Source: Balanoglossus misakiensis (Eukaryota; Animalia; Hemichordata). Taken from it: a stretch of 64,000 nucleotides of DNA. The position numbers and the translations under genes are program-made. Positions 29,455-52,055 of the stretch are shown here, in pieces. Where the stretch lies: contig CM082589.2 in NCBI GenBank assembly GCA_040954595.2, forward strand, positions 1,466,009 through 1,530,008. The letters run 5' to 3'. The number at the start of each line of letters is the position of its first letter. The stretch's first letter is position 1. Under the pieces are notes generated by a model. It made no database searches, was not told the DNA's origin, and saw only the letters and a program-made list of their open reading frames with translations.

Positions 29455-32276
<2,822 letters not shown>

Positions 32277-35612: not shown

Positions 35613-38600
35613 TTACTGGGGTGCTGGCACTAGTCTGGGATTGGCCATGTTGCTGAGTTTACTGACTTCCATCAGCCAATTGGGGACTTTCTTGGTGGTC
35701 ATGTGACGGCGTGCATGCTTGGTCAGGTGATCACTGCGCATGAAGCGTCGATCGCACAGCGGACAGGCGAATTTCTTCTCCCCAGTGTGCGTGCGTTTGT
35801 GTCTGGAAAGTTCATCTGATCTTGCAAACGTCTTCTCGCAATCCTCCCAGGTACATTTGAAAGGTTTTTCACCTGTTGGCATCAAAAGGAAAAAAGTCAC
35901 ATCAGTTTTCTGTTTACAAAGACTTCACTTGCTGATAATCATAATCATTTAATAATTAATATTGTGGTCTCCACAGCAACTCGGAGGAAGATGTCCTTGA
36001 CATTGAAGGTAGACTCTTTGGAAGCACCCCAGTAACCAATGTATGTGATAGCCAAGATACACAGTGGTCAGACAAACAGTAGTTTTCCTGGTGTAGGTTT
36101 TGTGATACTGGTAACATTTCCAAGCCTAAGTGACTAGCTACATTGCTATCTGACTGATATAGTGACAATGCTCGCTCTTACAATGATAACCCCCAAGTTT
36201 AAAAATAGAAACTCAATTAACATAGTAACTAATTATGCAAATTAGCAAATACATATGGCAATGTTGAGATTATTCTACAACCTTTGTAAAATTATCAACT
36301 GTTATACCACTTCAAAGATAATCTTATCGTTTACAATAAATGGGTCTTAGAGGAGCATAAAGCCAATTTGTCTTCAGACTGACATTTTTACTGATAACTG
36401 AGATTAGGCGGGCTCACCTGTATGAGTTCTCACGTGTGCTTTCAAGTGGGAGCTTTTGAAGTATGTCTTTCCACAGTTCTTGTAAGTACACACATGACTG
36501 CGCCGTCTGGAGAATTCCGATGGGGGGATTTGCACTGCTGGATTCTGAGGGACGATGATTGGCGTTTGTGGAGATGACATCGGGGCAAGACGAAACTGTG
36601 AACTACAGTCCTGTTTTGTTGGGTTCACGATGACCATGACTGAGCCGGGCGGAATGATCGCGCCGGTCATGACGACTGGTTTCGGGAGAATGTCCGTGTG
36701 CCCCGGGGAGTGACTTGTCACAGGTTGCGGCGCGATCTGTCCACATGGAATGCTGGTGGTGGTCACAGCTTGGGTGAAGATGGCAGAGTTGTGTGCGTTG
36801 ATTGGTGACACTGTGCCTGCGATACAAACTGGTGACACTGCTGGTGCAATCGCCTGTAAAGGACTTGCTCTAGGAAAGTTTTTGGGTGCCACTGGACGTT
36901 GGACATTGTTTGTTGCCCTCGATGCTTCGCTACTAAGTCGAGGAATTTTCGCAGGTATCGGAGAGGCGTTGACACAGTCTGTGTTGTAAGAAATAGCTGC
37001 TGATGTAATAACACTTCTTGAACTGTTGACACGACTTATGACAGGCACTTTGGTGCTGGTCGGAACGACGCCCCGATTGACGACCAGAGCACTTGTTGTT
37101 GAGGCACTAGATGAAAATCTTGGTGTCTTTGGCAATGATAATGCTGACCCACTCTGGGTGGTAAAAGTTTTAGTCAAAGGAGGCAGTGGTAACTTGAGAG
37201 CTGAATTCGATGATGCGGTTGTTGGTGGTGATGGTGGCGACAGCGACAAAGGTGACGTTGATACAACGCCTGTAGTGTTCTTGGCTGGAAGTGTGAGACC
37301 TCCACATTTATTTGACAACGTCAGTGGACCTGAAGGCCCTCTTGGTGGAATCTGCAGATTGCCAAGATGAGGGACTGTGGTGGTTGGAACTGGAACTGTT
37401 CCCGGGAGTATCAACTGATGCGTTAATTTTGTTGGAGGTGGAGTCATTGGAGGCGTCTCCATTCCCTGCACAGAAAAAAAAATATTAAGTGGTTAATATT
37501 TAAGTACTTTTTGCACAGAAAAGTAAACCATTCACATTTTGATCAATACTACTTAGAAATATCAATTTTTCAACCCTCTGCAATTCTGCGTTAATTTGTT
37601 CAATATTTATTTAACTGAACTAAAGCTTTAGAAGTATTTACACTGACCAAGCATCTACCATTCAACAAACTGCAATCTTGTGTAAACATAATTATGTAAC
37701 TCTGGACAGTTCAACTGACTCTAACCATGAAATGAGGTATAACAAAGAACACCTTGGGGCAAAAATTGAAGGCAGTTACAGTGTTATGTAATGGAGAGAT
37801 CTTAGCCTAAGAGGTAAACTGACTTTTGACCCGAAACAAAATTTTCCATCACTTACATTAACACAGGCTGATAGTTTTCTTTTTCTGTCAATCTTTGGGT
37901 GTGGCGGGAAGCTGTCCATACTGTCTTCTCCGTCTTGCGATACAGGAGACGGTGGAGCGTGGGATACCGGTGAGCTTGGTGAAGATCTGCCGTCCGATTT
38001 CTGGGGAGACCACTGCCTCATTGATAACAGTGTGTTGACAGCATCGATGTCAGATTTATCCATTCTAGTTTTATGTTTCACTCTCCCACCCGATTCAGTG
38101 ACGACTTCTTCCTCCTGTGAAATACAGAGCCAAATATTTGGTGAAAAACAGAACTTTTACTTCTTTGTTTGTAATGATTTCAAGTGGCATTTTCAGCTGT
38201 AATTGTATGAAGCAATTTTAATATTGAGAAATACACGAATCATGACTGGAATACTGAAAGCAAATTTTAGAGCAGATGTGCTTCAGTGAAGCACGAAATT
38301 AAGAGCGATCTGTGTCTGGGATTGTGTACAATATATAGTCATCAGTCATGATGCTTGGGGCTCATTTTGCCTTGTGAATGTGATGAATTTATTTGAAGAG
38401 AGCGTCTTGAGTGTCATTGTGAGTACGGAACTGATGTACTTTCTGAAATGTAGGTCACAGTACAAGAGGTCTTACACAACTGAGGAACTGTTCATTGCCA
38501 TTCCTTGAATATATTTACTTTTAACCATGTTTTATAAGGCCATGAATATATTATGTTTAGAAACTGGAAATTTAAATAACTAAGTGAAAAGATTCCATTG

Positions 38601-41559
38601 TGGGTGTATGTCTATGTTGTCACAACACTTCCTAGACAGAGTGACAATAACAACTTTGATGCATGATTTCACAACTAATTAATATTCATTAGGAATCTGG
38701 ACGTGCCCCTACAGCTAACCAATCATGAGAACTATATGCAGTCACACCCTCACTGCATATTAATGTCTGTTTCAAATATCAGCCAATCACAAGGCGGCAA
38801 ACTCCCCCAGCCTTTATCACTCCTCCGAAGCATGATCTCTGGGCTGATGAAATCAACTTTCAACAAAAGACAATCGGTACAGTAAATGAAGTGAGTAGAT
38901 TGGTGGCTTTTGACTCATCTAAACCCAACCACTGATCACACATCATAGGCATGAACATATGCAAAAAAAAAAAAAAAAAAATACCCAATACAACCACAAC
39001 AACATCCACCGTTTTTAATCCAAACACATGATATCATCACTTTTTGGTGTACGTGGAAGGTTCCACATCAGCTGACGAAAAAAAACTCCATCTCATGGAG
39101 GATTGCCAAAACCAACTAGTTTAAACATGTCCAATATTATGAAGGCAAGCAGACATTTACACAAGCTACAAGTCCGTAGGCACATTGCTGTTTACTTTAT
39201 CCACACACAAATAACCTGAACAGTTAGACTTATTATGATTTCACTTTCATTATATTAAGTCACCTTTGCTCTAATTTCCGTACATTTCACTCAATTACAA
39301 CATATTATGATATCTTGTTTGTTAGATTTTTGGTCTGTTTCTTCCCTTTTTAGTTTTTTTTGTGTGAGAGATTTTTCAACATTTCACTACAAGTACAACC
39401 TTGAAACCGGAGAGGTTCATAGCAGGTAATTAATTATATTGTACATGTACATACATAATCTCGGTTCTCCCTTTTCACGAATTCCAGTTATTTCCCTATT
39501 TTTCACAGCAATTTAAATATTCCCTTGTTCACAAAAATTGTGTAACACAATAACTATTTTTTTATTTTTAACAATATAAAAGAAAGAATCCTGCCACTAT
39601 TATAATTATGGCGACAACCACATATCTAGACAAAAAAATATGATTTGACAAAAAAATGCATTTTTAATAAAAGGCAAATGCGTCACTCGCGTTTCAGGGG
39701 CCACCAGTGCTGCGTACGTGCAAAATTGTCTCGATTCAGCAACTCAACCCAGAAATACTCATTAGCATATTCATAAGCTCATTTGAATAAAGGCTGATGT
39801 CATTCCCTTGGTGGTCTATGTCAGACAATAGTAACATGTAGATATCCAAAGGTCAAACTGGTTCACCTGACTATTTCATGTGATGGAGGCATGTCAACTG
39901 ACTTCCCCATCAACTTCCAGTCCACAAGCAGAATACTTTAGCAAGGCCATCACTGATAGCTATTGCTGTTAAAATTTCATTTTAAGAAATAGATTGAATA
40001 ACTTGTGGTTAATTACAAAACAAAAGGCTACTTTTGTCATTAGTTGTAGAACTGATTAAATTATATGTGTTTGTTGCTTAGTTACAGAAATATCCTGAGA
40101 AAAAAGTATACACGCAGACCCACCATCTTTCTGGAAACATTTTTTCCATTATTTATTTCTGCGGTTTGTTTACTTGTTAAGTTAGATGTGATTGGCTGGT
40201 AGCCTTAACCCACTCTAGTCTGTTCAAGGCCTCTTCGACCACGACTTGTACAACTGATCGCATCAATTACACTACTGGCATTGTCCAATCACAGAATGTG
40301 GGATGCGGTCTTTCGCTGCTACGTGCGTAGTTGCAGGTGACGGTCCTACGCTAGTATTACATGTAAACGTATGGATTTATCACCATTCATCTTATAGATT
40401 TTATAATGTCAACCTTCGACTGCTAAGTTGAAGGTAGGTCAAATTAAGGGGGCGTAAACCCGACGTTAAAAAGGTGCAGCGAGAATAACACGCATCTCTA
40501 TCTCCAGAGTTGAAGTTCAATACTACTTTTAAAAAGATTTTTAATATTTTCGCAGGGGGGGGGGGGCAGCCTCTTGCCCTCCCTTCTAAGTTGACGCCCC
40601 CCCCCCCTTCCCATGGACGCAATAATTTGAATAGAAGATGCTACCTGGAGATAACGCTAAGAAACATACGGACATTTCTCTTTCAGAAAAGAAAATGCAA
40701 AAATGCGAGAGAAAAGAAGTGGAAAATCCGATGGGAGGCTAATGCGAGAAGTACCTTTAAAAGTCGCGTTATATGCGCGCATATCGTACCTAAATTTAGT
40801 CTTTCGCATCTTGTTATAAAAAATGTGAAAATCGTAATTCGCGATTTTAACTTTTGTTCTCAGTAATAACTTCTAAATAATCTTGCTTTTGCTCTTAAGC
40901 CTAATGACAAATAAAGAAGAAGCGCGATAGTCATCATGATGATCTTTTTTAACTCGAGAATCGCACAGGTTTAGGATGAAAATTGAAAAGGATTCTTTTC
41001 TATCAAAACGAGCACTTTTTCCACCAAAAAAGTTCTTGGATTCAGGATATAATTTCGTCAGAAACAATCCAAGTTGGTTTAAGATAAATAAAATTTGTTT
41101 CTATCACCAAAGAACTTTGAATTCGTACTTTGTTTTAATGTCAAAACGATCGAGGCGGTGAAGATGCGTTTCAAAAACAGCTGTTTCATAGACAACCACT
41201 TCCGCACTACATACTATAAAACGAAAACTCACGTAGCTTTTGCAGTTCTGCACTGCATTGCAGTGTGTGGACTATCGAATTCTTCTTTCACACAGTAGAA
41301 ATATTTTGGTAGCGAACAATCGCATTGGTTTTGCGATTAATTTTTAAGCGACTGATACAATGTTGGAAAGAAATTAACAAACAGGATACATGTACATTTC
41401 ACAAGCGCGCAGATACGCAGCTGAAACGCCCGCCCAAGAAAACAATAAGATCGTATTGAAAATAATAATCGAAAGCTGTCATCGATAGGAATAACATATA
41501 TAACTTACGCAGATCGGTTCAGGTGGGGTCTGTGGTGGTGATAGTGGCCTGAAATCCAT
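35613..41559 (-). CDS. klf10/11: Kruppel-like factor 10/11 (TIEG/cabut group), about 538 aa
   Basis: Exons 41559-41509 ([17 protein letters not shown]), 38114-37857 (Sin3-interaction motif [12 protein letters not shown]), 37465-36418 (METPPMTPP; [31 protein letters not shown]) and 35872-35613 ([56 protein letters not shown]...[10 protein letters not shown]). Intron phases are compatible and all introns are GT-AG. Confidence 0.95.
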
Positions 41560-41699
41560 GTAGTCTTTGCGAAACATAAAGAAGCTGTACGCGCTGCTAA
41601 CACATCGAGAAACCGAATGTCAGTATATTTTTGTGTGATGATCATACATCGGGTGTGTTTTTGTACATACATTGCTCTCATAACAGTTTCACGCGTGTC

Positions 41700-42360
41700 T
41701 GGTATGGTGGGTGTGTGAGAGGATTGACCAATCGCCATGAAGTAAGCAACGTCTTTTGACCAATAAGCGCTTAGTGTACTAGGTGTACATGTGATGCCAG
41801 CATGCACCAGCACGTGTAGTAAGGCTGGCTGAATGGATGGCAGGAAACCCTAGGTAAACAGGCCATCAGCAAAAGCGTATACATAACCATGCATTATTAA
41901 AAGCGAATCTTTTATAACTTTTCGATATAAAATTAAGGAATAATCCATTTGAAAGGCAATATCAAAGCGATGGTTGGCAAAAGCGCTTGTTATTTACAGT
42001 TACTTTGAAAACGCGTGACCTAAGGTCGCTCGCATATATAATTTGGCCTTTGAACCCTGATTTTCTGGGCGCGGTGAATGACGTCATGAAAATCTCGTCT
42101 TTTTCACACGATATCAATGGCGAGAATTAGGATTATTTACTAATCAAAATCCCTCCGCAATGTAATTCCAATATGGTTTTATTAAAGCTTGAAATACAAA
42201 CTTTTTATGAAAAAAATATTTGCCGTTTGATGCCAATTTTAATCTGTACGTAGACGTGTGCATTTATTGCTTTAGTTTTTCTATTACTTAGTTTTTTTAT
42301 GCATTGATCGACCACCCGCGCAATGAGTGATTCGGTTGCGATGGCACTTCATGTGTTAGT
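41700..42360. promoter_or_regulatory. Bidirectional promoter region between klf10/11 and odc1
   Basis: CpG-enriched gap of under 1 kb between divergent first exons; CCAAT boxes near 41728 and 41761, E-box CACGTG 41811-41816, full CRE TGACGTCA 42079-42086. Confidence 0.7.
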
Positions 42361-42396
42361 CCGTTACCACCACGCCGTCTTTTACCCGCCGCTGCG

Positions 42397-42420
42397 ATGA
42401 TTTGCAGAAGCTACAGCTGA
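42397..42420 (+). promoter_or_regulatory. Short AUG uORF (MICRSYS*) in odc1 leader exon 1
   Basis: ATG ATT TGC AGA AGC TAC AGC TGA, ending 51 nt before the uCC start. Depends on the TSS lying upstream of 42397. Confidence 0.5.
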
Positions 42421-42471
42421 CTATCTTCTTGCCAGGATTTTAACACTTTTTGGCCTCTAAAGTTCGCCAAA

Positions 42472-43605
42472 ATTCCCCCGAAAAGAGGAAGGAGCAACGG
42501 AGCGTGGGAATTACCTGTCCAGGTGAGTTTTAACCTTCTTTAATGCGACGATAAACGTCGGTGAAAATTGTGGAAAATGTGACTGACGTGTGCGTGTTCA
42601 TTGAAAAGGTTGAAAATATGCCACTCTCTGTGACTCACATTCACATTGCATTGGTATTGCTCAATGTTTTAGCATATTGTGACATTAAATTCCAACAAAC
42701 TGAACTGTCTTCTCGAAAATCTCACGACACAGTAAAGCCAAAATGACCGACAATGACCACTATTCGTGCGAGGGTAAGATGTCCATTGCTCCAATCAGAT
42801 TACATGTAATGGACATGTTTTCTTGCTTGAGGGAATTGTACATTTTGATGCCACGTTTTAAAATTAATCCAAAAGATTATCAATATTATATTTCCATAAT
42901 CCGGTGTCATTTCCGTGATTGTTTGCCATGGCTAAAACAAGCTGTTGCCTGGCAGAGAACTTGCGTAACGAGAACAAACCGCCGATGGCATGGCTTTCAA
43001 ATATGGGAGTTATGTCATGGCTTTGGTGCTTTCATACTGAAACTCACATGGTTGGAAACTCACAGAAATAACAGGAATTATGCTTAATCGCAGGCTATAG
43101 AACCGAATTTATTGGGCCAAATCACAAAGCCAGTTTAAAGTTGGTCTGTAAAATATAAAAAAGTGGACTAGTTTGTCGTTGATCAACCTGATCAGACTAT
43201 AAAAGTGGGCGTGTTCTGTCCGCACATAACTTGAGCCACAACGACCTTTTCATTGCGAAAGCGTGGCCTGTCCAAACTTTTAATATCGTCACTAAGGTAA
43301 ATAAAAGCTGAAAAGTAGCTATGTCGTTAAAGGGATAAAATGTGAATTGAATGTATTTTCATTCAAACTATTACATGATGAAAGCTTTTTCCAACTTCAT
43401 TTTGTCAGTGATCACAAAGTTTTGGAAAGGAAAGCAACATGCCTATGCACATTTAACAAATGAAAAAGCAGTTTTTCATATGAGTTTTATTTTTTTATTG
43501 CAGGGTGGGCACTGCAGTAAACTATACATCAAGCACCCTGAAGGGTTGTGCCTTTACCGTGAGCAGCTAGACTGCAACTTCGAAGCCCCTTGGAATCCCA
43601 GCTGA
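42472..43605 (+). CDS. AUU-initiated upstream conserved coding region (uCC) of the ODC/AZIN family, 50 codons, spliced
   Basis: Exon parts 42472-42522 (ATT in gccaaaATTc context; IPPKRGRSNGAWELPVQ, donor CAG|gtgagt) and 43504-43605 (GGHCSKLYIKHPEGLCLYREQLDCNFEAPWNPS*) join in phase 0. Matches the AZIN1 uCC pattern as I recall it (IPPKK...PEGL...LYREQFDFNAEPPWEPS*). Confidence 0.93.
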
Positions 43606-43931
43606 TATCTGCTGACGATACGACTCTTTGAGTTTGCTATGTAAGTAATCAGTAATCTAGCAGGGGGTTTGTACTTTGCACCCCTCCTTCCAAAGAGGTT
43701 GAAAAGTTTAATGTAAAAAGAAAAATATTTCACCAGTCGAGTTAAAAATATGGCTTCGTTAGTGACATTTATTTTAAGAAAATCTCGATAAATATATATT
43801 TTATCCATCAAAAAAGATTGACTACCCAACATATGTTTAACAGAATCATCTTTTTTACCCCCAGCTTGCTGCGTATTTCATAAAATCTCCCTGGACAGGG
43901 TCCCACATTTTGCTCCTTAAATATATTCATC

Positions 43932-46900
43932 ATGAAGAATATGATTGGAAAAGATATTGGTGTGGAAGTTGTCAGTGATGACAGTTTGGTCAAAGATGTT
44001 GTGGCCAAAAAGATGGCCCTTCATACCCTAGAGGTAAGTGACGACGACCGTTAAAAATAGAACACTTTCATCAAATTTATTATCTGAATTGTCAAATGAG
44101 TTATGATGTCCATATGGTAGAAACTGAGAAAAAATTCCCTTGAGCAATTTGAGCTTTTATAAAAACCTTACGCGATGCTTGTTGAATCTGCATATCATTA
44201 ATCAGTTTCTAGCGTTTGATGTTTATTTTCCCCTTACTGAAATGCTAAATTTAAAGTCGCAGAATTCATCAAAGGTGCTCCTTTTTGTGGTTTGCAGGAC
44301 AAAGATGAAGCTTTCTTTGTGTTGGACCTTGGGGATATTGTACGAAAATATGAAAAATGGAGGGAACTGCTGCCTCGAGTGGAACCTTTTTATGGTAAGT
44401 TAACATATTGTCTATAAAATTTGAGAGTATTTGCAGAAAACTAGAAGAGTTGCTACTTTCTCTTGAAAATGTGTCATGTCACTTATTCTGATGTTTTCTT
44501 TTTTTGGTCAATAGCTGTGAAGTGCAATGAATCCCCTGCAGTACTTCAGGTCCTGGCTGGTTTGGGAACAGGATTTGATTGTGCCAGTAAAGTAAGTACA
44601 AAAGTTCGGGTTTATATTTAAAAATTACTACAGCACACTGGTGGAGTTGTTTTGAGTTTAATGAATAACTTTAGCCACTGCATTCACTATGCAGGATATT
44701 TATTAGGTGTTGTATATCACGCGACATACGGAAGATGTAAATTCCATTCCAAGCATGTCTGAAGGGCAGGAATCGCCCTGACCCAACTAAGCGGGATAGA
44801 CCTACATTTTATAAGTCAAGGCCATAAGCAAGTACATGTAAACAAATCAAATTGACCTGGGACCTATGAAAGTGTGCATTAGTGACATATGTTGCCAATC
44901 TTGCTAATAAATAGTGATCAATCTGTTCCTTAACTTTTGCGAAAACAGTTATTACATGTTTATAAAATTATCGTATTTTCTCTACAGAGTGAAATCCAAA
45001 CAATGATTGACATGGGAGTGGAACCATCTCGGATTGTGTATGCGAATCCCTGTAAGCCAAACTCCCATCTGAAGCTTGCTGCTCAGAAGGATGTCAGTTT
45101 GATGACGTTCGACAATGAAATGGAACTTCACAAGATAAAACGCATCTACCCTAATGCGAAGTAAGTGTTGTTGTCAACAAATAATTGACGTCGGATACCT
45201 TTGCAGAAGCGTGGCTCTTTCCAATTCTACAAACTCTGCAAGACACAAGATTTCTTTCCATTGATTGGATGGTTTTCCTTTCATTTTCCAGATTGGTGTT
45301 GCGCATCCTTACTGATGATTCCTCTGCCCAATGTCAGCTAGGATTGAAGTATGGATGCCACCCACACCATACGCCCCACCTACTCAAAGTTGCGAAAGAA
45401 CTTGGACTGAATGTCGTGGGTGTCAGGTAAGCACATTTCAGTATCAGTACAGCTTTGCTGGGGTTCATAGTAAATCTTGCAAAAGTTGAGACAATGGTCT
45501 TGTCCAAATATTGGCTTTTGTGCCGAAGGCCTGTTCACCATTGTCAGTCGATGATCACCTGTGTGTAATTTTCCATCACACCCAACTCACAAGTCTGGGT
45601 TTATATTTGACTAAAGTACATATGGTACGAGTTATATAACACTCTAAATGTGTTTCATAATTGTACTGGAAAATGTAATGTGTAATGGCTATGATGACAA
45701 CTTGCCCTCATTGATAAACTGGTGAAAATAACAGCACTAGATCCTCATAATATTCTGAGCCAAAAACTGAACTAAGATTGTGTCGTGTAGTGTTGCAGTA
45801 GCCAAGATATTGGAGGTTTCATTATTGATTGCTATCGTTTTGTATCTTGGGCAGCTTCCATGTTGGAAGTGGGTGTCGAGAGGCCACAGCTTTCTCTGAG
45901 GCAATCCAGAGTGCAAGGATGGTCTTTGACTACGGAGAACAGCTGGGTTTCAATTTTGAACTGTTGGACATTGGCGGTGGATATCCTGGTCAAGTATCGG
46001 CTTCAATCACATTTGAAGAGGTAAGATGGAATTGCAAATCGTTCACTCTAATTTTTGTGTTTGCTCGTTCAGTTAGGCAGAGCTGAAGTGGTGTAGTGTC
46101 GAGTTTTCACCATAAATTGCTCTGTTTTCAGATTTTCATAATGTTATTCTATATCATTGCAGATGGCAGTTTGCATAAACCAGGCCTTGGAAGAGTACTT
46201 TCCCAAAAGCTGTGGTGTTCGTATCATTGCTGAGCCAGGCCGCTACTTCGTAGCATCTGCGTTTACACTGACTGTAAACGTCATTGCTAAACGCACTGTT
46301 GCAAGAGACATCAAGACCTTTGATGTGCCTGGAGCAGAAGGTTGGTATTCAAAAATTACATCCTGCCTCGATGTTCCTCTAATCAAGCTTTCTTTTGTCA
46401 GCCAGACAGCAGATCACGTCCTTAAGGCAGATTGACGTGATGTTTGAGTGGAAACTGACATTGTAGATTGTACCGGTCAAATTTGAGCCGTTATGAAAAA
46501 GTGCATTCAGATATCGTGTCCTGTATTCTATTTCTGATCAAGACTGACGTTCACTTTTGTGTTCTTCTCAAAGATGTTAATTATTTATGTTCACCTTTTC
46601 TGGACTTCTATGAACATGCGTCATCAGGGTGTCAGACGCAATTTCCTCTTTATTCAGCACGGGTACTCGTGCTGTAAAATGAAATGCACAAAAGCCACGT
46701 TCGTCACTGGAAGGATGTTTAGATGTCAGTCTGAGGAATGTTTGTTTGCACTGAACTCAAAGGGCTATGGCAATCTTTGATACTGGTAATCGTAAAGACT
46801 CCATGGGCTGTATTAAAAATGAATATCCATTCTGTTACAGATTTAGTATCCAACACCGTGGCACCAAGTCAAAGTGATGAGCCTGCGTTTATGTACTACT

Positions 46901-47873
46901 GCAACGATGGAGTTTACGGTTCATTCAACTGTTTGCTGTTTGACCATGCTTCTGTGAAACCGTCTCTCATCAAGGTAAATATATCATCATAGGGTAATAT
47001 TCAGTTTGTCATGATGTAGGAGTTTACTCTGCATTACATCATTCGGTGTGCATTATTGCAGAAATTCTTTTCAAGAAATTGTGCATATTTTGTGAAGCCA
47101 TACTTGAGAAAATATGAATCTGTTTTAATTTCCAATATTCCCGACTGATTGCAGAAGGTGGATGCAGAAGCACCAAGATATTCCTCGAGTGTCTGGGGTC
47201 CTTCCTGTGATGGCTTGGATCGTATCATGGAACATTGTCTGCTGCCTGAACTTGATGTTGGTGATTGGATTGTATTTGAAGGTAAGCAGAGGACTCTCTT
47301 TATGCATGCAGTATGAAATGGCTATGATGACATCTTGCCCTCATTGATAAACTGGTGAAAATAACAGCACTAGATCCTCATATATTCTGAGCCAAAAGAT
47401 TGTGCCATGTAGTATGTACAATTCACACATGGCAGCTATTTTCATGGAAAAGGGTTCTCTCCATTATAATACAAGGTGCTCTTTTTCCATTTTCAGACAT
47501 GGGTGCCTACACCATGTGTGCTGCGTCCACCTTCAATGGGTTTCCAAAACCTATATGTTACATCATGGCCAACGAGTCAGTCTGGTAAGTGATAATTTAT
47601 CGATCAGCTTAACATTCTTTCAATGTCATTATGGTTATGTGCCAGAAAGACCCTTACCATATTAAGTCTTTACTTACCATCTGCCTTTTCCTTTGCAGGA
47701 CATTCCTGAAACAACTGTTACCGAAGGAAGACAGATTTCAACCCACCAACATGGACACTGAGATGGCTGCTGCCTGTCCTACCATGAAGAGCGGTTTGAA
47801 CCAATCATACGCCGCCTCTTGTGACCTCCCTCGAATGACAAAGACACCCATTCCTATTGGGCCAGATTTTTGA
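43932..47873 (+). CDS. odc1: Ornithine decarboxylase
   Basis: Coding exons 43932-44033, 44298-44394, 44515-44591, 44988-45160, 45292-45426, 45855-46020, 46163-46340, 46841-46974, 47155-47281, 47497-47584, 47699-47873. Motifs PFYAVKCN (PLP lysine), [54 protein letters not shown] (catalytic Cys), DMGAYT. AATAAA at 48135 and 48415. Confidence 0.97.
45686..45762 (+). ncRNA. Intronic C/D-box snoRNA, copy 1 (SNORD103/SNORD85-like, 18S rRNA guide)
   Basis: Terminal stem TGGCT...AGCCA, box C ATGATGA 45691-45697, D' TTGA 45711-45714, box D CTGA 45755-45758. ACTTGCCCTC before D' is complementary to 18S GAGGGCAAGU. Ends about 90 nt before the 3' splice site. Confidence 0.9.
47319..47394 (+). ncRNA. Intronic C/D-box snoRNA, copy 2
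   Basis: Near-identical to 45686-45762 (one substitution, one indel) with unrelated flanks; box C 47324-47330, D' 47344-47347, box D 47387-47390. Confidence 0.9.
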
Positions 47874-49641
47874 CAGCTCTTTAGAACTTAGAGGTTGAAC
47901 TTTGACCCATCTTTTTGAATATTTATAATGTACAACCTGTCATTACTGGGCATTAGATCATTTAATTTATTTCTGATAAGATGCATTTTAAAATTTCATC
48001 ACTACTTTGAGTTGGTATGGAATTAAGGGTTTGAAATTTTTTACCCAATTATATTTCAAATCGCAGTTGAAATCTCACTGAAAATACAAGGTATACATTG
48101 GAAGCTGTTTTCTTAATGATCATGAATTGGTTAAAATAAATTCGCACCGCATCGCGCAGAACTTTGGGTAAAATGATATCTATAGTTTTGTCAGAGTTCA
48201 TATAGTTGTGCAGTTACTGTACAACTGTTTGAAAAAGTGACATTTTAATCACTGATTATTATAGAAAAAAAAACATGGAAAATTTTAACATGAACCTCAT
48301 TACCTGGTACACTTCTTACTGTACCTTTCGATTCAATCAAAATCTACAAGCTTGTTCATGTAAATTTGTTGCTTTTGACTTTTAAAAGTCTTTGAGATTG
48401 CATATTGTCATGTCAATAAATAGTTTGAGCATGTTTCTCATAAAATTCAGTTTTACTTTTGTCCATTGGCATTATTGTAGTTCAAAGTTCAATCTACTCT
48501 GTTGGTTTATTTTAAGAAGTGGAATATCTCTTTATGATTAGGCATGCGATTGGGGAATGTCGTAAACATTACATTTTATTTGGGTGATCGATCACCTTCC
48601 TACTGAAATACGCTGACTTCATTTTTTTCAGCTGAAGTCGCAACCTGTATGATGGTATAAAGCAACTTTCATGGCAATTTCATGTGTGACCAAAAAGAAT
48701 ATTGACTTTGACCCTTTCAACTGCCATTCAAGCGAAAACAAGCTGCTATGATTCTGTAAAGAGTTTTGAGCTTTTTAAAAGAAGCAACAGAATACAGCTG
48801 TACAAGTTATTGGCATTATATGGTACATAACATTTTCATTGCTGACATAGTAACTGTAATGGATTACTCCTGAAACTTCCATTTCAAGAATTTCTCAATG
48901 CTTGTTCATTATGTTGACATTCGTGGCAATTAAAACAAAAGTTACTCTTGTATACTTTGCTGTTGAAGTTTCTTCATTACATACACAACGCAGGGGTTGA
49001 GCACGAAATACCAGCCATATATTTGAGGGTGGGGATGAGTTTGTACACAGTAATTCAACTGTACAGTTTATCAAGAAATTTAATTACAGGTAGATAGAAT
49101 GCTTTCATAGGGCAATGTTGCATGAGTATATTTAGACTTGAAAATTACAAGAGTTATTTCTGGTACAATTTTATGCCACATAAAGCTTGCCTACCTGCAA
49201 ATCTGCAAACTTGATTGAAAGGTTCAAGGCAATAAACCCTGCGCCAATAACAACGTGATTACAAACCATTTTCTCGGTTGGGTGGTTGGCGGCGCTCGTT
49301 CACAAACCATAGGCGGAGCGATTTTATGACGTTTGTTGGTAAAATTGACATATCATGAATTGAGGTAAAATGCACTATTCACTTAAATAAATTCAGTAAT
49401 TGGAGTTGCAAAAAGGTGAAATTAAGGCGTCCATTTGACAAAATTTTCTTTCAGAATGATCGATGCCATCTTACAGAGCGAAACAAGTTGGACTACTTTT
49501 TTCACACTTAGTGCATGGATACTAGTATTTGAGTGGTGAAGTTACTGTTGATTCCGGCGAAATCATAATCTATTGCATCGCGTGCCATTTCCACTGTTTG
49601 TATCCCTTTCCCCTGAAAAGTACAAAATCAACGACACCAAT

Positions 49642-52055
49642 ATGGAAGACACAAAGGTTCTCGACCTCCTGTATAAAGAGAAAGAAGAGTGCGACAAAGC
49701 TGGTCTGACAAATGCGTCGAAGCTGGTTAACGAAGGTGAGCAAAAACAATCAACATGGCTTCTTTTGTCTGAGATTGTCATGTGTCATGTTATCACTTCG
49801 AAATAATTCATTTGTACACGCCGTATAGCTTTGAAACACAAGGAAGTGATCCTTCTTACTCGGTTACTGCGTTGGTTTATGTACATGAAGAGAACGCTTT
49901 GCAAATTCTGTGCAAATCCCCGTTTAAATAAATAACTCGAAGACGCGAACCGAAAAAGAAAATGGCGGACACAAGATGGCGGCCCACGTGTCAACAAAAC
50001 CCTTGTCTATTTCAGGCTACATCACACGAGTCCTGATCGTCGAGAATATTACACCAGAGCCTGTTTAATATTTGTTTTGCTCAACCCTTGAATTGTATTC
50101 ACAGAGATGAAGAAGATACAAGATTCAAAGGACCCTGAGAAAATGAAATCAAAGTTTTTGGAACTGACCAAAGATAAACCATTGAAATTAGTTGAAAAGA
50201 TCGTGGTTCCTGTCAGAGATCATCCAAAGGTAAGTCTGAAACTAGACAATTGACTGTTTTTAATCCTTTTACTCCATTTCCCTCTGTAGAGGTCCAACAT
50301 TACTATAAAAACAATGGATTTGGACCAAGCCAAATAAAGTAATAACTAAATATCCTCTTTTGCAGTTTAATTTTGTTGGGAAGATCCTTGGTCCAAGAGG
50401 TAACTCGCTGAAGCGATTGCAGGAAGATACAGGAACTAGAATTACCATCTTAGGAAAGGGGTCAATGAGGGACAAGAACAAGGTAAGTATCTTCTTTGAT
50501 TCAAGAGTCTAATCTGGACAGTTTGCAGATTTGTTAGTAAACAGATATGGGTTCTGGCAGTGTTTGTACAACTTTCTTTTTGACACTTAGGAAGAAGAAC
50601 TGAGGAAAGAAAATTCGTCCAAATATGCTCATTTGCATGATGATTTACATGTGATGGTTGAAGTATATGCGTTGCCTGGAGAAGCACATACCAGAATGGG
50701 ATATGCACTTGATGAAATCAAGAAGTATCTTGTCCCAGTAAGTATATGTTTTTGATATGCAATTTCCCACAGAAGCAGTATAACATTTCCCTCCTTAGAG
50801 GCCCATCCAGAATATTGTCTTCAAATCCATCCACAAATAATTAAATTATGTGTCCAAATTTCAAGGTGTAAACAGTGATTTATAATGTTTAATGTCTTTA
50901 CAGGATAATAATGATGATATCAGACAAGAACAGTTGAGGGAACTTGCTGTGATCAATGGGACCTTGGATGCGCCCCCAAGTGGTCGAGGTCGAGGAATGG
51001 GAGGTCCGGGTGGTCAGGGAGTTCGTGGACGAGGAGGAATGATGGGTCGTGGGGGGATGCAAGGACAGAGAGGAGGGATGGGGATGAGAGGGGGGCAGTC
51101 TGGTCGTGGGGGATCAATGGGAGGGAGAGGAGGGATGGGAATGGGAGGAGGAGGGGGTGGTGGTATGGGAATGGGGGGTGGCGGTGGTGGAATGGGAGGG
51201 GGAGGAGGTGGTATGGGGGGTGGGGGTAACATGGGAATGGGAGGACAGCGAGGAGGTCAACAGTATGATAACACTGGTGGAGCCAGGCAGTCTCAGATGA
51301 TGGAACAAGAATCCTATGTAAGTATCGTGGCAAGTGTTCCGCAGCCAGTTTCTTCATCTTGCATATGGAACTTTTTACAACCAATTCATATGTTGAACCT
51401 GTTGGTGTATCGCTTTATGTTTTTATCAATGAGGACTGATAGGGTTTTCTATTCCAGGGATATGATGAATCTTACGGTAACCAGGGTTACGGGCAGTCAT
51501 ATGATCAGTCGTATGGAGATAACAGTGGGTAAGTAATGAATTACTCTTGTATGAGTAATTACAAAATTGATCACCATTGAAATTTCAACAATTTTGGACA
51601 TTTCTTCAGTGTTTGCATTCTGAGATAATTATGTCCGATGCATTTAATTTGTCGCTGTTGCAGTACGGGTGAAGGTTATTATGAAGACTACAGTTCAGCT
51701 GGTGGTGATGATAGCTCAGGATTTGGGACTGGTGGCTATGGTAAGGAAACTGCATAACTATTTCAGAATCGGTGTTATTTATTTTAGCTGCATACATGAA
51801 TGAATAGATCCCAGATAATACAGACCTAACATGCATACCAAGAAACAGTCGTAAGTTTATTTCTGTTTGATTGACAAGTAAGAACACTGGAATGAATGAT
51901 TTGATTGATTGATTGTTGCAGGTGGTGGCAACAACCAGGGCTGGGGTACTGGAGCAGCAGCCGGGGGTGGCGGTGGTGGTGGTGGTGGACCCTCTCGTTT
52001 CAAATCACCAGGCATGAAACATGGAGTGGGAAGGAGCCACCCCTACCGATTCTAA
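49642..52055 (+). CDS. khdrbs: KH domain RNA-binding STAR protein (KHDRBS/Sam68/SLM family)
   Basis: Exons 49642-49735, 50105-50229, 50366-50482, 50591-50737, 50904-51317, 51458-51528, 51664-51740, 51922-52055. Qua1-like N-terminus, KH motif [61 protein letters not shown]/Gly-Met region, Tyr-rich tail and C-terminal RSHPYRF* (PY-NLS type). Confidence 0.95.
49961..49983 (+). promoter_or_regulatory. Tandem YY1-like motifs in khdrbs intron 1
   Basis: aaaATGGCGGac and caagATGGCGGc within 25 bp in a CpG-rich first intron. Confidence 0.4.

What the first reader, a model, noticed from the sequence alone, without database searches (positions are those of the whole stretch)
42472..43605. Hidden spliced AUU-initiated uORF (uCC) in front of a catalytically intact ODC, ending APW-x-PS* rather than PPW
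Seen: a 50-codon frame starting at ATT in good context, split by a 981-nt intron, reading IPPKRGR...PEGLCLYREQLDCNFEAPWNPS*; the downstream ODC keeps its PLP lysine (AVKCN) and catalytic cysteine (GPSCD). Established: the uCC of AZIN1 and many non-vertebrate ODC homologs is a polyamine sensor in which eIF5A-dependent pausing at PPW (or at PS-stop) queues ribosomes and raises near-cognate initiation. Inference: this locus resembles the pre-duplication state with enzyme and sensor in one gene, and the EPPW to EAPW change may shift sensing onto the PS* termination pause. Standard annotation misses it.
Basis: partly seen in the sequence, partly recalled or inferred. Interest (0 to 1): 0.85.

Follow-up and report, generated by a model that had tools for sequence, protein, structure and literature searches.

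The report
Acorn-worm polyamine brake without double proline
The leader of this acorn-worm-type ornithine decarboxylase gene holds a short, intron-split reading frame without a normal start codon, related to a known polyamine-sensing brake on translation; it lacks the usual double proline, so it likely stalls ribosomes at its stop codon instead, and a tail shared with amphioxus suggests that some ribosomes may read past that stop.

Summary
Observation confirmed. A 50-codon frame runs from ATT 42472 through a 981-nt intron to TGA 43605 and ends APWNPS*, upstream of an 11-exon, 483-aa acorn-worm-type ODC that keeps 18 of 18 catalytic key residues. It is a true homologue of the animal uCC: it matches amphioxus over its whole length (E 1.7e-7 for the second exon; the first exon ranks 1 of 1829 candidate stretches) and shows protein-level selection (pS 0.86, pN 0.09). 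A uCC before an active invertebrate ODC has been known since 2008, and this scan has found it on other DNA. Two things differ. (1) Ala replaces the first proline of PPW; this is seen in one sequence only, and no other acorn-worm leader could be reached. No RNA, ribosome or polyamine data could be examined. Verdict: new variant of a known kind.

The parts
42436..42522 (+). Leader exon that carries the uCC start (5' edge inferred: acceptor before 42436 with a CTGAC branch-like motif at 42417-42421; 42408 is an alternative acceptor; the transcription start is unknown)
   Evidence: an 89-nt internal exon with the AUU 41 nt in is seen in L003
42472..42522 (+). uCC codons 1-17, starting at ATT (AUU), A at -3
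   Evidence: best match to the amphioxus uCC N-terminus among 1829 stop-free 17-codon stretches
42523..43503 (+). 981-nt phase-0 GT-AG intron after a Gln codon
   Evidence: same phase-0 position after Gln in L003
43504..43605 (+). uCC codons 18-50 and TGA; ends APWNPS*; Ala codon GCC at 43585-43587 where both outgroups have CCA
43606..43640 (+). Post-stop frame, first part (same frame as the uCC), up to the donor AT|GTAAGT
43641..43864 (+). 224-nt leader intron (weaker sites: donor 5.4, acceptor 4.7 bits)
   Evidence: 43865 gives the best amphioxus match of 14 AG sites (48 against 29 or less)
43865..43883 (+). Post-stop frame, second part, and second stop TAA at 43881-43883
43932..47873 (+). 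Ornithine decarboxylase, 11 coding exons, 483 aa, 18 of 18 key residues; its AUG lies 102 spliced nt after the uCC stop

Best explanation
This is an AUU-started, intron-split upstream reading frame homologous to the animal uCC, placed before an ornithine decarboxylase with all key catalytic residues, and it likely works as a polyamine brake whose ribosome pause is predicted to fall mainly at the Pro-Ser-stop rather than at a Pro-Pro-Trp. Steps: (1, shown) the frame exists, is spliced-compatible and is under protein-level selection. (2, inferred from AZIN1) most scanning ribosomes would skip the weak AUU and start ODC 102 nt after the uCC stop. (3, inferred from AZIN1 and yeast HOL1) high polyamines would hinder eIF5A, termination at Pro-Ser-UGA would slow, helped by the invariant upstream residues of the nascent chain, a queue would form and more ribosomes would start at the AUU, so ODC synthesis falls. 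(4, weakest, inferred) some of the paused ribosomes would read through UGA and translate a conserved hydrophobic 17-residue tail to a second stop 48 nt before the ODC start. My odds: translated uCC 0.93; polyamine-dependent repression 0.75; pause mainly at termination 0.55 of that; read-through as the reason for the tail 0.45.
For: Homology: 67% identity over all 33 residues of the second exon to Branchiostoma Hypp1198, E 1.7e-7; equal length of 50 codons without gaps against that peptide counted from its AUU-equivalent Ile; uCC copies upstream of ODC in 2 independent loci (L001; L002-L004, which are one locus at 99.8%). Selection: last 22 codons pS 0.86 / pN 0.09 against L001 and 0.85 / 0.15 against L003, no such excess in the two shifted frames. 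Conserved AUU with A at -3 in 3 of 3 DNA sequences. PS* kept while PP is lost; Trp and the last Ser invariant in 7 of 7 aligned rows, the two prolines not. PS* alone is a polyamine/eIF5A-sensitive termination pause in HOL1 (review passages). APW and EAP: 0 hits, PPW 1 and EPP 4 hits in the supplement of PMC5499558. Tail: 10 of 17 residues and 31 of 51 nt shared with L001, as conserved as ODC itself (59% aa), 5 of the 10 by synonymous codons, TAA/TAG at the same codon, background identity (16 of 48) after it; no RNA structure signal (z -0.35 and -0.13).
Against: No transcript, footprint or reporter evidence was examined for this organism. In AZIN1 the mapped pause and the essential motif is PPW (review passages), which this frame lacks; GCC is one base from a Pro codon and is seen in one assembly only; 2 of the last 6 residues are private changes of this sequence, which could mean recent relaxation. 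The yeast table is a machine-read PDF and rare tripeptides may lack counts. The two other PP-less peptides (P0032 cluster, P0035) have no DNA context, and P0032 also lacks Pro before the last Ser. The tail rests on one pair; L003 has an open 23-codon frame after its stop but no sequence likeness; the 36 nt before the AUU are also 53% identical without a coding pattern; first codon positions in the tail differ as often as third positions (8, 4, 8); the column-shuffle P for 5 or more synonymous codons is only 0.06.
Confidence: 0.5

Rival explanations
1. Same brake, same site as AZIN1: the APW still gives a polyamine-sensitive elongation pause in this peptide context, and the Ala is a tolerated substitution.
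For: Pro-Trp and the upstream block are kept; many non-polyproline motifs depend on eIF5A and upstream residues tune the pause (PMC5499558 passages); the review says only 'almost all' uCCs have two prolines.
Against: APW is not in the yeast motif table as read; both outgroup DNA loci keep the two prolines over saturated synonymous distance, so the change is unlikely to be neutral.
Confidence: 0.22
2. The Ala is a recent allele, an assembly error or the start of relaxation; the frame is a weakened or constitutive repressor in this lineage and tells nothing new on mechanism.
For: One base separates GCC from a Pro codon; one sequence only; window-private changes P>A and D>N both fall in the last six residues; selection measured against distant outgroups cannot see recent relaxation.
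Against: Frame, AUU, length, both splice sites and the stop are intact; only 2 private amino-acid changes in 22 codons, no more than in L003 (2) and close to L001 (1).
Confidence: 0.18
3. For the tail only: the conserved 17 codons are not read through from the uCC but are a second small frame begun at a near-cognate codon just after the stop (re-initiation), or an RNA-level element such as a protein-binding or splicing signal.
For: Near-cognate codons follow the stop in both sequences (CUG, CUG, ACG, AUA here; UUG, CUG, GUG in L001); vertebrate AZIN1 has position-conserved small uORFs beside the uCC; non-coding leader upstream of the AUU is also conserved (19 of 36); an intron lies inside the segment.
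Against: The shared near-cognate positions have pyrimidines at -3; conservation starts at the first codon after UGA and stops at the second stop; given the observed number of base differences, an open frame with kept stop and 10 or more identities arises in 0.0017 of simulations; no fold signal.
Confidence: 0.45
4. The frame is a vestige or chance open frame and is not translated.
For: No expression data were available; no AUG start.
Against: E 1.7e-7 homology, conserved position, length, intron phase and synonymous excess across at least three animal lineages.
Confidence: 0.04

Closest known systems
Animal uCC of ODC homologues (Ivanov, Loughran and Atkins 2008; seen only through the review PMC2811004, first two of four parts read, and passages of PMC4458265)
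   Same: About 50 codons, no in-frame AUG start, AUU with A at -3, in the leader of an ODC homologue, conserved C-terminal block, ends Pro-Ser-stop.
   Different: One proline instead of two before the Trp; a conserved 17-codon frame follows the stop, which the texts I read do not mention.
Vertebrate AZIN1 uCC, PPW/eIF5A ribosome-queuing sensor (Ivanov et al. 2018; primary paper not held, seen through passages of PMC8705083, PMC9082881, PMC11550727, PMC10855120 and bioRxiv 10.1101/710061)
   Same: AUU start, same length, Trp and PS* at the end; likely the same queuing logic.
   Different: The mapped stall motif PPW is absent; the main frame is an enzyme with 18 of 18 key residues, not an inactive antizyme inhibitor; no AUG uORF lies between 42400 and the ODC start in the spliced leader.
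Yeast HOL1 uORF (MLLLPS*), polyamine/eIF5A-sensitive termination pause (Vindu et al. 2021; seen through review passages)
   Same: Ends Pro-Ser-stop; the proposed sensing step here.
   Different: Unrelated, six residues, AUG start, controls a transporter.
Vertebrate AMD1 stop-codon read-through tail (Yordanova et al. 2018; one passage in bioRxiv 10.1101/710061)
   Same: Polyamine-pathway mRNA with a conserved in-frame extension behind a stop codon.
   Different: There it follows the main coding frame and is long enough to hold a ribosome queue; here it follows a uORF, is 17 codons long and read-through is only inferred.

Membership tests
Animal uCC of ODC homologues | Lies in the 5' leader of an ODC homologue | tested here: met
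   102 spliced nt before the AUG of a 483-aa ODC
Animal uCC of ODC homologues | Non-AUG (mostly AUU) start in good context, about 50 codons | tested here: met
   ATT with A at -3, 50 codons; same start position in L001 and L003
Animal uCC of ODC homologues | Sequence homology and coding-type conservation, strongest near the C-terminus | tested here: met
   E 1.7e-7; 18 of the last 22 residues shared with L001; pS 0.86, pN 0.09
Animal uCC of ODC homologues | Ends Pro-Ser-stop | tested here: met
   CCC AGC TGA at 43597-43605
Animal uCC of ODC homologues | Two adjacent prolines near the end (typical: 'almost all examples' in PMC2811004, not universal) | tested here: not met
   Ala-Pro-Trp
Animal uCC of ODC homologues | Translated and represses the main frame in a polyamine-dependent way | not testable with these tools
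   no RNA holder listed; needs footprints and reporters
AZIN1-type PPW elongation-stall sensor | PPW tripeptide as the eIF5A-dependent pause site | tested here: not met
   APW; not filed as a member
Active eukaryotic ODC (not an antizyme inhibitor) | 18 key residues in human ODC1 numbering (list from Table 2 of PMC5574924) | tested here: met
   18 of 18, mapped through the Ptychodera protein to human ODC; enzyme activity itself not tested
Programmed stop-codon read-through | Coding-type conservation continues in frame to a second stop | tested here: inconclusive
   met against L001 (P about 0.002, post hoc), not against L003
Programmed stop-codon read-through | Ribosomes or product seen beyond the first stop | not testable with these tools
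   no reads
Selenocysteine insertion at UGA | SECIS element in the mRNA | tested here: not met
   no SECIS family match at E up to 1 in window 38000-50000 or in L001; L003 ends in TAG

The most novel reading that the evidence does not exclude
In acorn worms and amphioxus the ODC uCC is a two-stop polyamine sensor: slowed termination at Pro-Ser-UGA both queues ribosomes and lets a regulated fraction read through into a hydrophobic 17-residue tail kept for over half a billion years, and acorn worms have dropped the PPW elongation stall altogether, giving a natural enzyme-linked case in which elongation and termination sensing are separated.
Probability: 0.25. Interest if true: 0.75.

Novelty: new variant of a known kind. 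Interest (0 to 1): 0.45.

Why it matters
The animal uCC carries two candidate pause signals, PPW and PS*, and only the AZIN1 copy has been dissected. A natural copy that keeps PS* but not PPW is a ready-made test of which step senses polyamines before an active ODC. If the tail is reached by read-through, it would add a recoding event inside a uORF to a pathway already known for frameshifting (antizyme) and read-through (AMD1), and it is directly testable with a dual reporter. If APW proves a private allele and the tail an RNA element, this is an ordinary new member of a family known since 2008.

Tried and rejected
No genome was held for the window, so paralogues and a second allele could not be checked. 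No RNA holder was listed; this is not evidence either way. No other acorn-worm uCC was reached: protein searches gave 3 hits among 609 candidates and the same 3 among 255; viral contigs 0 of 40 pattern matches and prokaryote genomes 0 of 54 confirmed; ESM Atlas gave no usable hit; Pfam 0 families for 5 of 5 uCC peptides. Dropped before counts: P0031 (1421-aa repeat protein, chance match), L005 (9-residue match, no ODC by tblastn), L002 and L004 (99.8% identical to L003). Rejected: alternative donor at 42516 (non-consensus, shortens the match to amphioxus); selenocysteine; RNA structure behind the stop; a +1 shift at the stop (frame closes after three codons here but not in L001). A search for papers on KLF10/11-AZIN1/ODC1 synteny gave one irrelevant paper, so that argument stays recalled. 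The primary papers (Ivanov 2008, 2018; a 2018 JBC review) were not held.

Full report
Observation. ATT at 42472 has A at -3 and C at +4; 17 codons later a consensus donor follows 42522; the intron is 981 nt; the acceptor opens at 43504 and 33 codons lead to TGA at 43603-43605, giving 50 codons that end APWNPS*. With a matrix trained on the ten ODC introns, this acceptor ranks 1 of 145 and this donor 3 of 169 candidate sites in 41000-43931. The main gene has 11 coding exons from 43932 to 47873 and gives 483 residues without a break. It aligns at 83% with Ptychodera flava, 77% with Glandiceps and 73% with Saccoglossus ODC and falls in a five-row group with them at 100/100 support (14 rows used of the 31 proteins at hand), so the host is an acorn worm or close kin. 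All 18 residues listed as essential for ODC activity (Table 2 of PMC5574924, section read) are present when mapped through the Ptychodera protein to human ODC.

The upstream frame is a real uCC homologue. Its second exon alone found 3 proteins among 1.84 billion; the best, at E 1.7e-7 and 67% identity over all 33 residues, is the C-terminus of Branchiostoma lanceolatum Hypp1198, a uCC annotated as a separate hypothetical protein. A scan of metagenome contigs gave 5 loci from 34 pattern matches: L001, an intronless amphioxus-like contig with uCC and ODC in order; L002-L004, three copies of one genomic locus of an unnamed animal with the uCC exon upstream of ODC exons; and L005, a chance match that I dropped. 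The first 17 codons here score best against the amphioxus N-terminus among 1829 stop-free stretches of the upstream 5 kb, which supports the AUU and the junction independently of the splice scores. L003 has its own AUU exon with A at -3 and a phase-0 intron after Gln at the matching place. Over the last 22 codons pS/pN is 0.86/0.09 against L001 and 0.85/0.15 against L003, with no such excess in the shifted frames.

What is known. The review PMC2811004 (first two of four parts and the first part of its supplement read) reports uCCs before ODC homologues in animals of six phyla, mostly AUU-started, almost all with two adjacent prolines and ending Pro-Ser, with function shown only for AZIN1, and says that AZIN1 split from ODC early in vertebrates. 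Sensor and enzyme in one gene is therefore the described state, not a discovery. Passages of later papers place the AZIN1 pause at PPW and describe eIF5A-dependent queuing, and describe a PS* termination pause in yeast HOL1. The primary papers were not held, so I could not see their alignments, which may include a hemichordate. Earlier notes of this scan report uCCs before ODC in five other genomes.

The APW change. Both outgroup DNA loci have CCA where this sequence has GCC, and it is one of two private amino-acid changes in the last 22 codons. In an alignment of 7 rows, Trp and the final Ser are invariant while the prolines are not: two unnamed peptides end EPEWGDIS and EREWDPS, but their DNA context could not be seen. 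In the supplement of a yeast eIF5A study (searched by term, main text passages read) PPW and EPP occur and APW and EAP do not; this is weak, since the table is machine-read and the full dataset was not held. A paper search for APW with PPW and stalling listed 13 of 15 papers, none of the 13 holding APW; a search for Saccoglossus with ODC and uORF found none. I could not reach a second acorn-worm leader, so whether APW is fixed is open. Termination sensing at PS* is the reading I favour, at modest odds.

The frame behind the stop. After TGA the same frame stays open for 17 codons across a second leader intron (43641-43864) to TAA at 43881-43883. I had fixed these splice sites from the window alone before L001 was fetched. 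L001 has a 17-codon frame at the same place, without gaps, 10 of 17 residues and 31 of 51 bases identical, closed by TAG at the same codon; five of the ten identities use different codons. That equals the conservation of ODC between the two (59% of 475 aligned residues) and exceeds that of uCC codons 1-17 (5 of 17); after the second stop identity drops to background (16 of 48). No 17-residue stretch among 49,389 in the six frames of the unspliced window reaches the score of 48 (best 36), and 43865 is the best of 14 possible acceptors. Two nulls that keep the number of base differences give P 0.002 and 0.0017 for an open frame with 10 or more identities. The distance from stop to ODC AUG is 102 nt in both and 104 in L003. 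Against: it is one pair and a post hoc test; L003 shows no likeness in its 23-codon post-stop frame; the 36 nt before the AUU are also 53% identical; and the synonymous count alone is not significant (0.06). There is no fold signal and no SECIS match. A search for AZIN1, uORF, read-through, polyamine and stop codon listed 7 of 8 papers; passages of the three that I opened do not describe read-through of a uCC stop.

Mechanism. Shown: the frame, its conservation, the intact enzyme. Inferred from AZIN1 and HOL1: leaky scanning past AUU at low polyamines; at high polyamines slowed eIF5A-dependent termination at Pro-Ser-UGA, queuing, more AUU starts, less ODC. Inferred from one comparison: part of the paused ribosomes read through into the tail, which could clear the stall or add a second one nearer the ODC start. 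Because many exon junctions lie downstream, termination in the uCC might also expose the message to nonsense-mediated decay; this is untested inference.

Verdict. A homologue of the known animal uCC, not a member of the PPW-stall type in the strict sense, with two unverified departures: APW and a conserved post-stop tail. New variant of a known kind; interest 0.45.

Noticed in passing
window 45684-45764 and 47317-47396 (+): Two near-identical C/D box snoRNA-like copies in ODC introns 5 and 9, matching Rfam SNORD103/SNORD85 at 32-33 bits (E 0.0002-0.002, below the gathering score of 45), with C and D boxes and terminal stem; none found in L003.
   Followed up: partly
window 35616-38156 (-): A three-finger KLF-type gene lies head to head with ODC. 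Its N-terminal motif looks like that of KLF10/11, and vertebrate AZIN1 and ODC1 sit near KLF10 and KLF11; subfamily and synteny are recalled, not shown by a call (one search found no supporting paper).
   Followed up: partly
window 30720-32095 (+) and 49640-51533 (+): RING-finger exons that look like mind bomb (Pfam zf-C3HC4_3) upstream and a KHDRBS/Sam68-like gene with a Gly/Met-rich exon downstream; both names are recalled.
   Followed up: no
L001 2-85 and P0030 1-28: In amphioxus an AUG lies 28 codons upstream of the AUU in the same open frame, which is why the uCC was annotated as the 78-aa hypothetical protein Hypp1198.
   Followed up: no
window 42397-42420 (+): An ATG in frame with the uCC opens a 7-codon frame that stops before the AUU; it falls in an intron if the acceptor at 42408 or 42436 is used, in the leader if transcription starts just upstream.
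   Followed up: partly
window 41690-42086: Promoter-like motifs: CCAAT at 41728 and 41760, CACGTG at 41811, TATATAA at 42035, TGACGTCA at 42079, and a strong donor after 41741 that could end a first exon.
   Followed up: no
window 42436-42471 against L001 50-85: The 36 nt before the AUU are 19 of 36 identical to amphioxus without gaps (P 0.002) and without a coding pattern.
   Followed up: no
P0032-P0034, P0035: uCC-like peptides from unnamed assemblies that lack the double proline; their N-termini look like translated intron ends with Gln at the same junction position.
   Followed up: partly
window 47150-47158: Tandem acceptor (CAG AAG) at ODC exon 9; the upstream one matches the length of the related proteins.
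   Followed up: no
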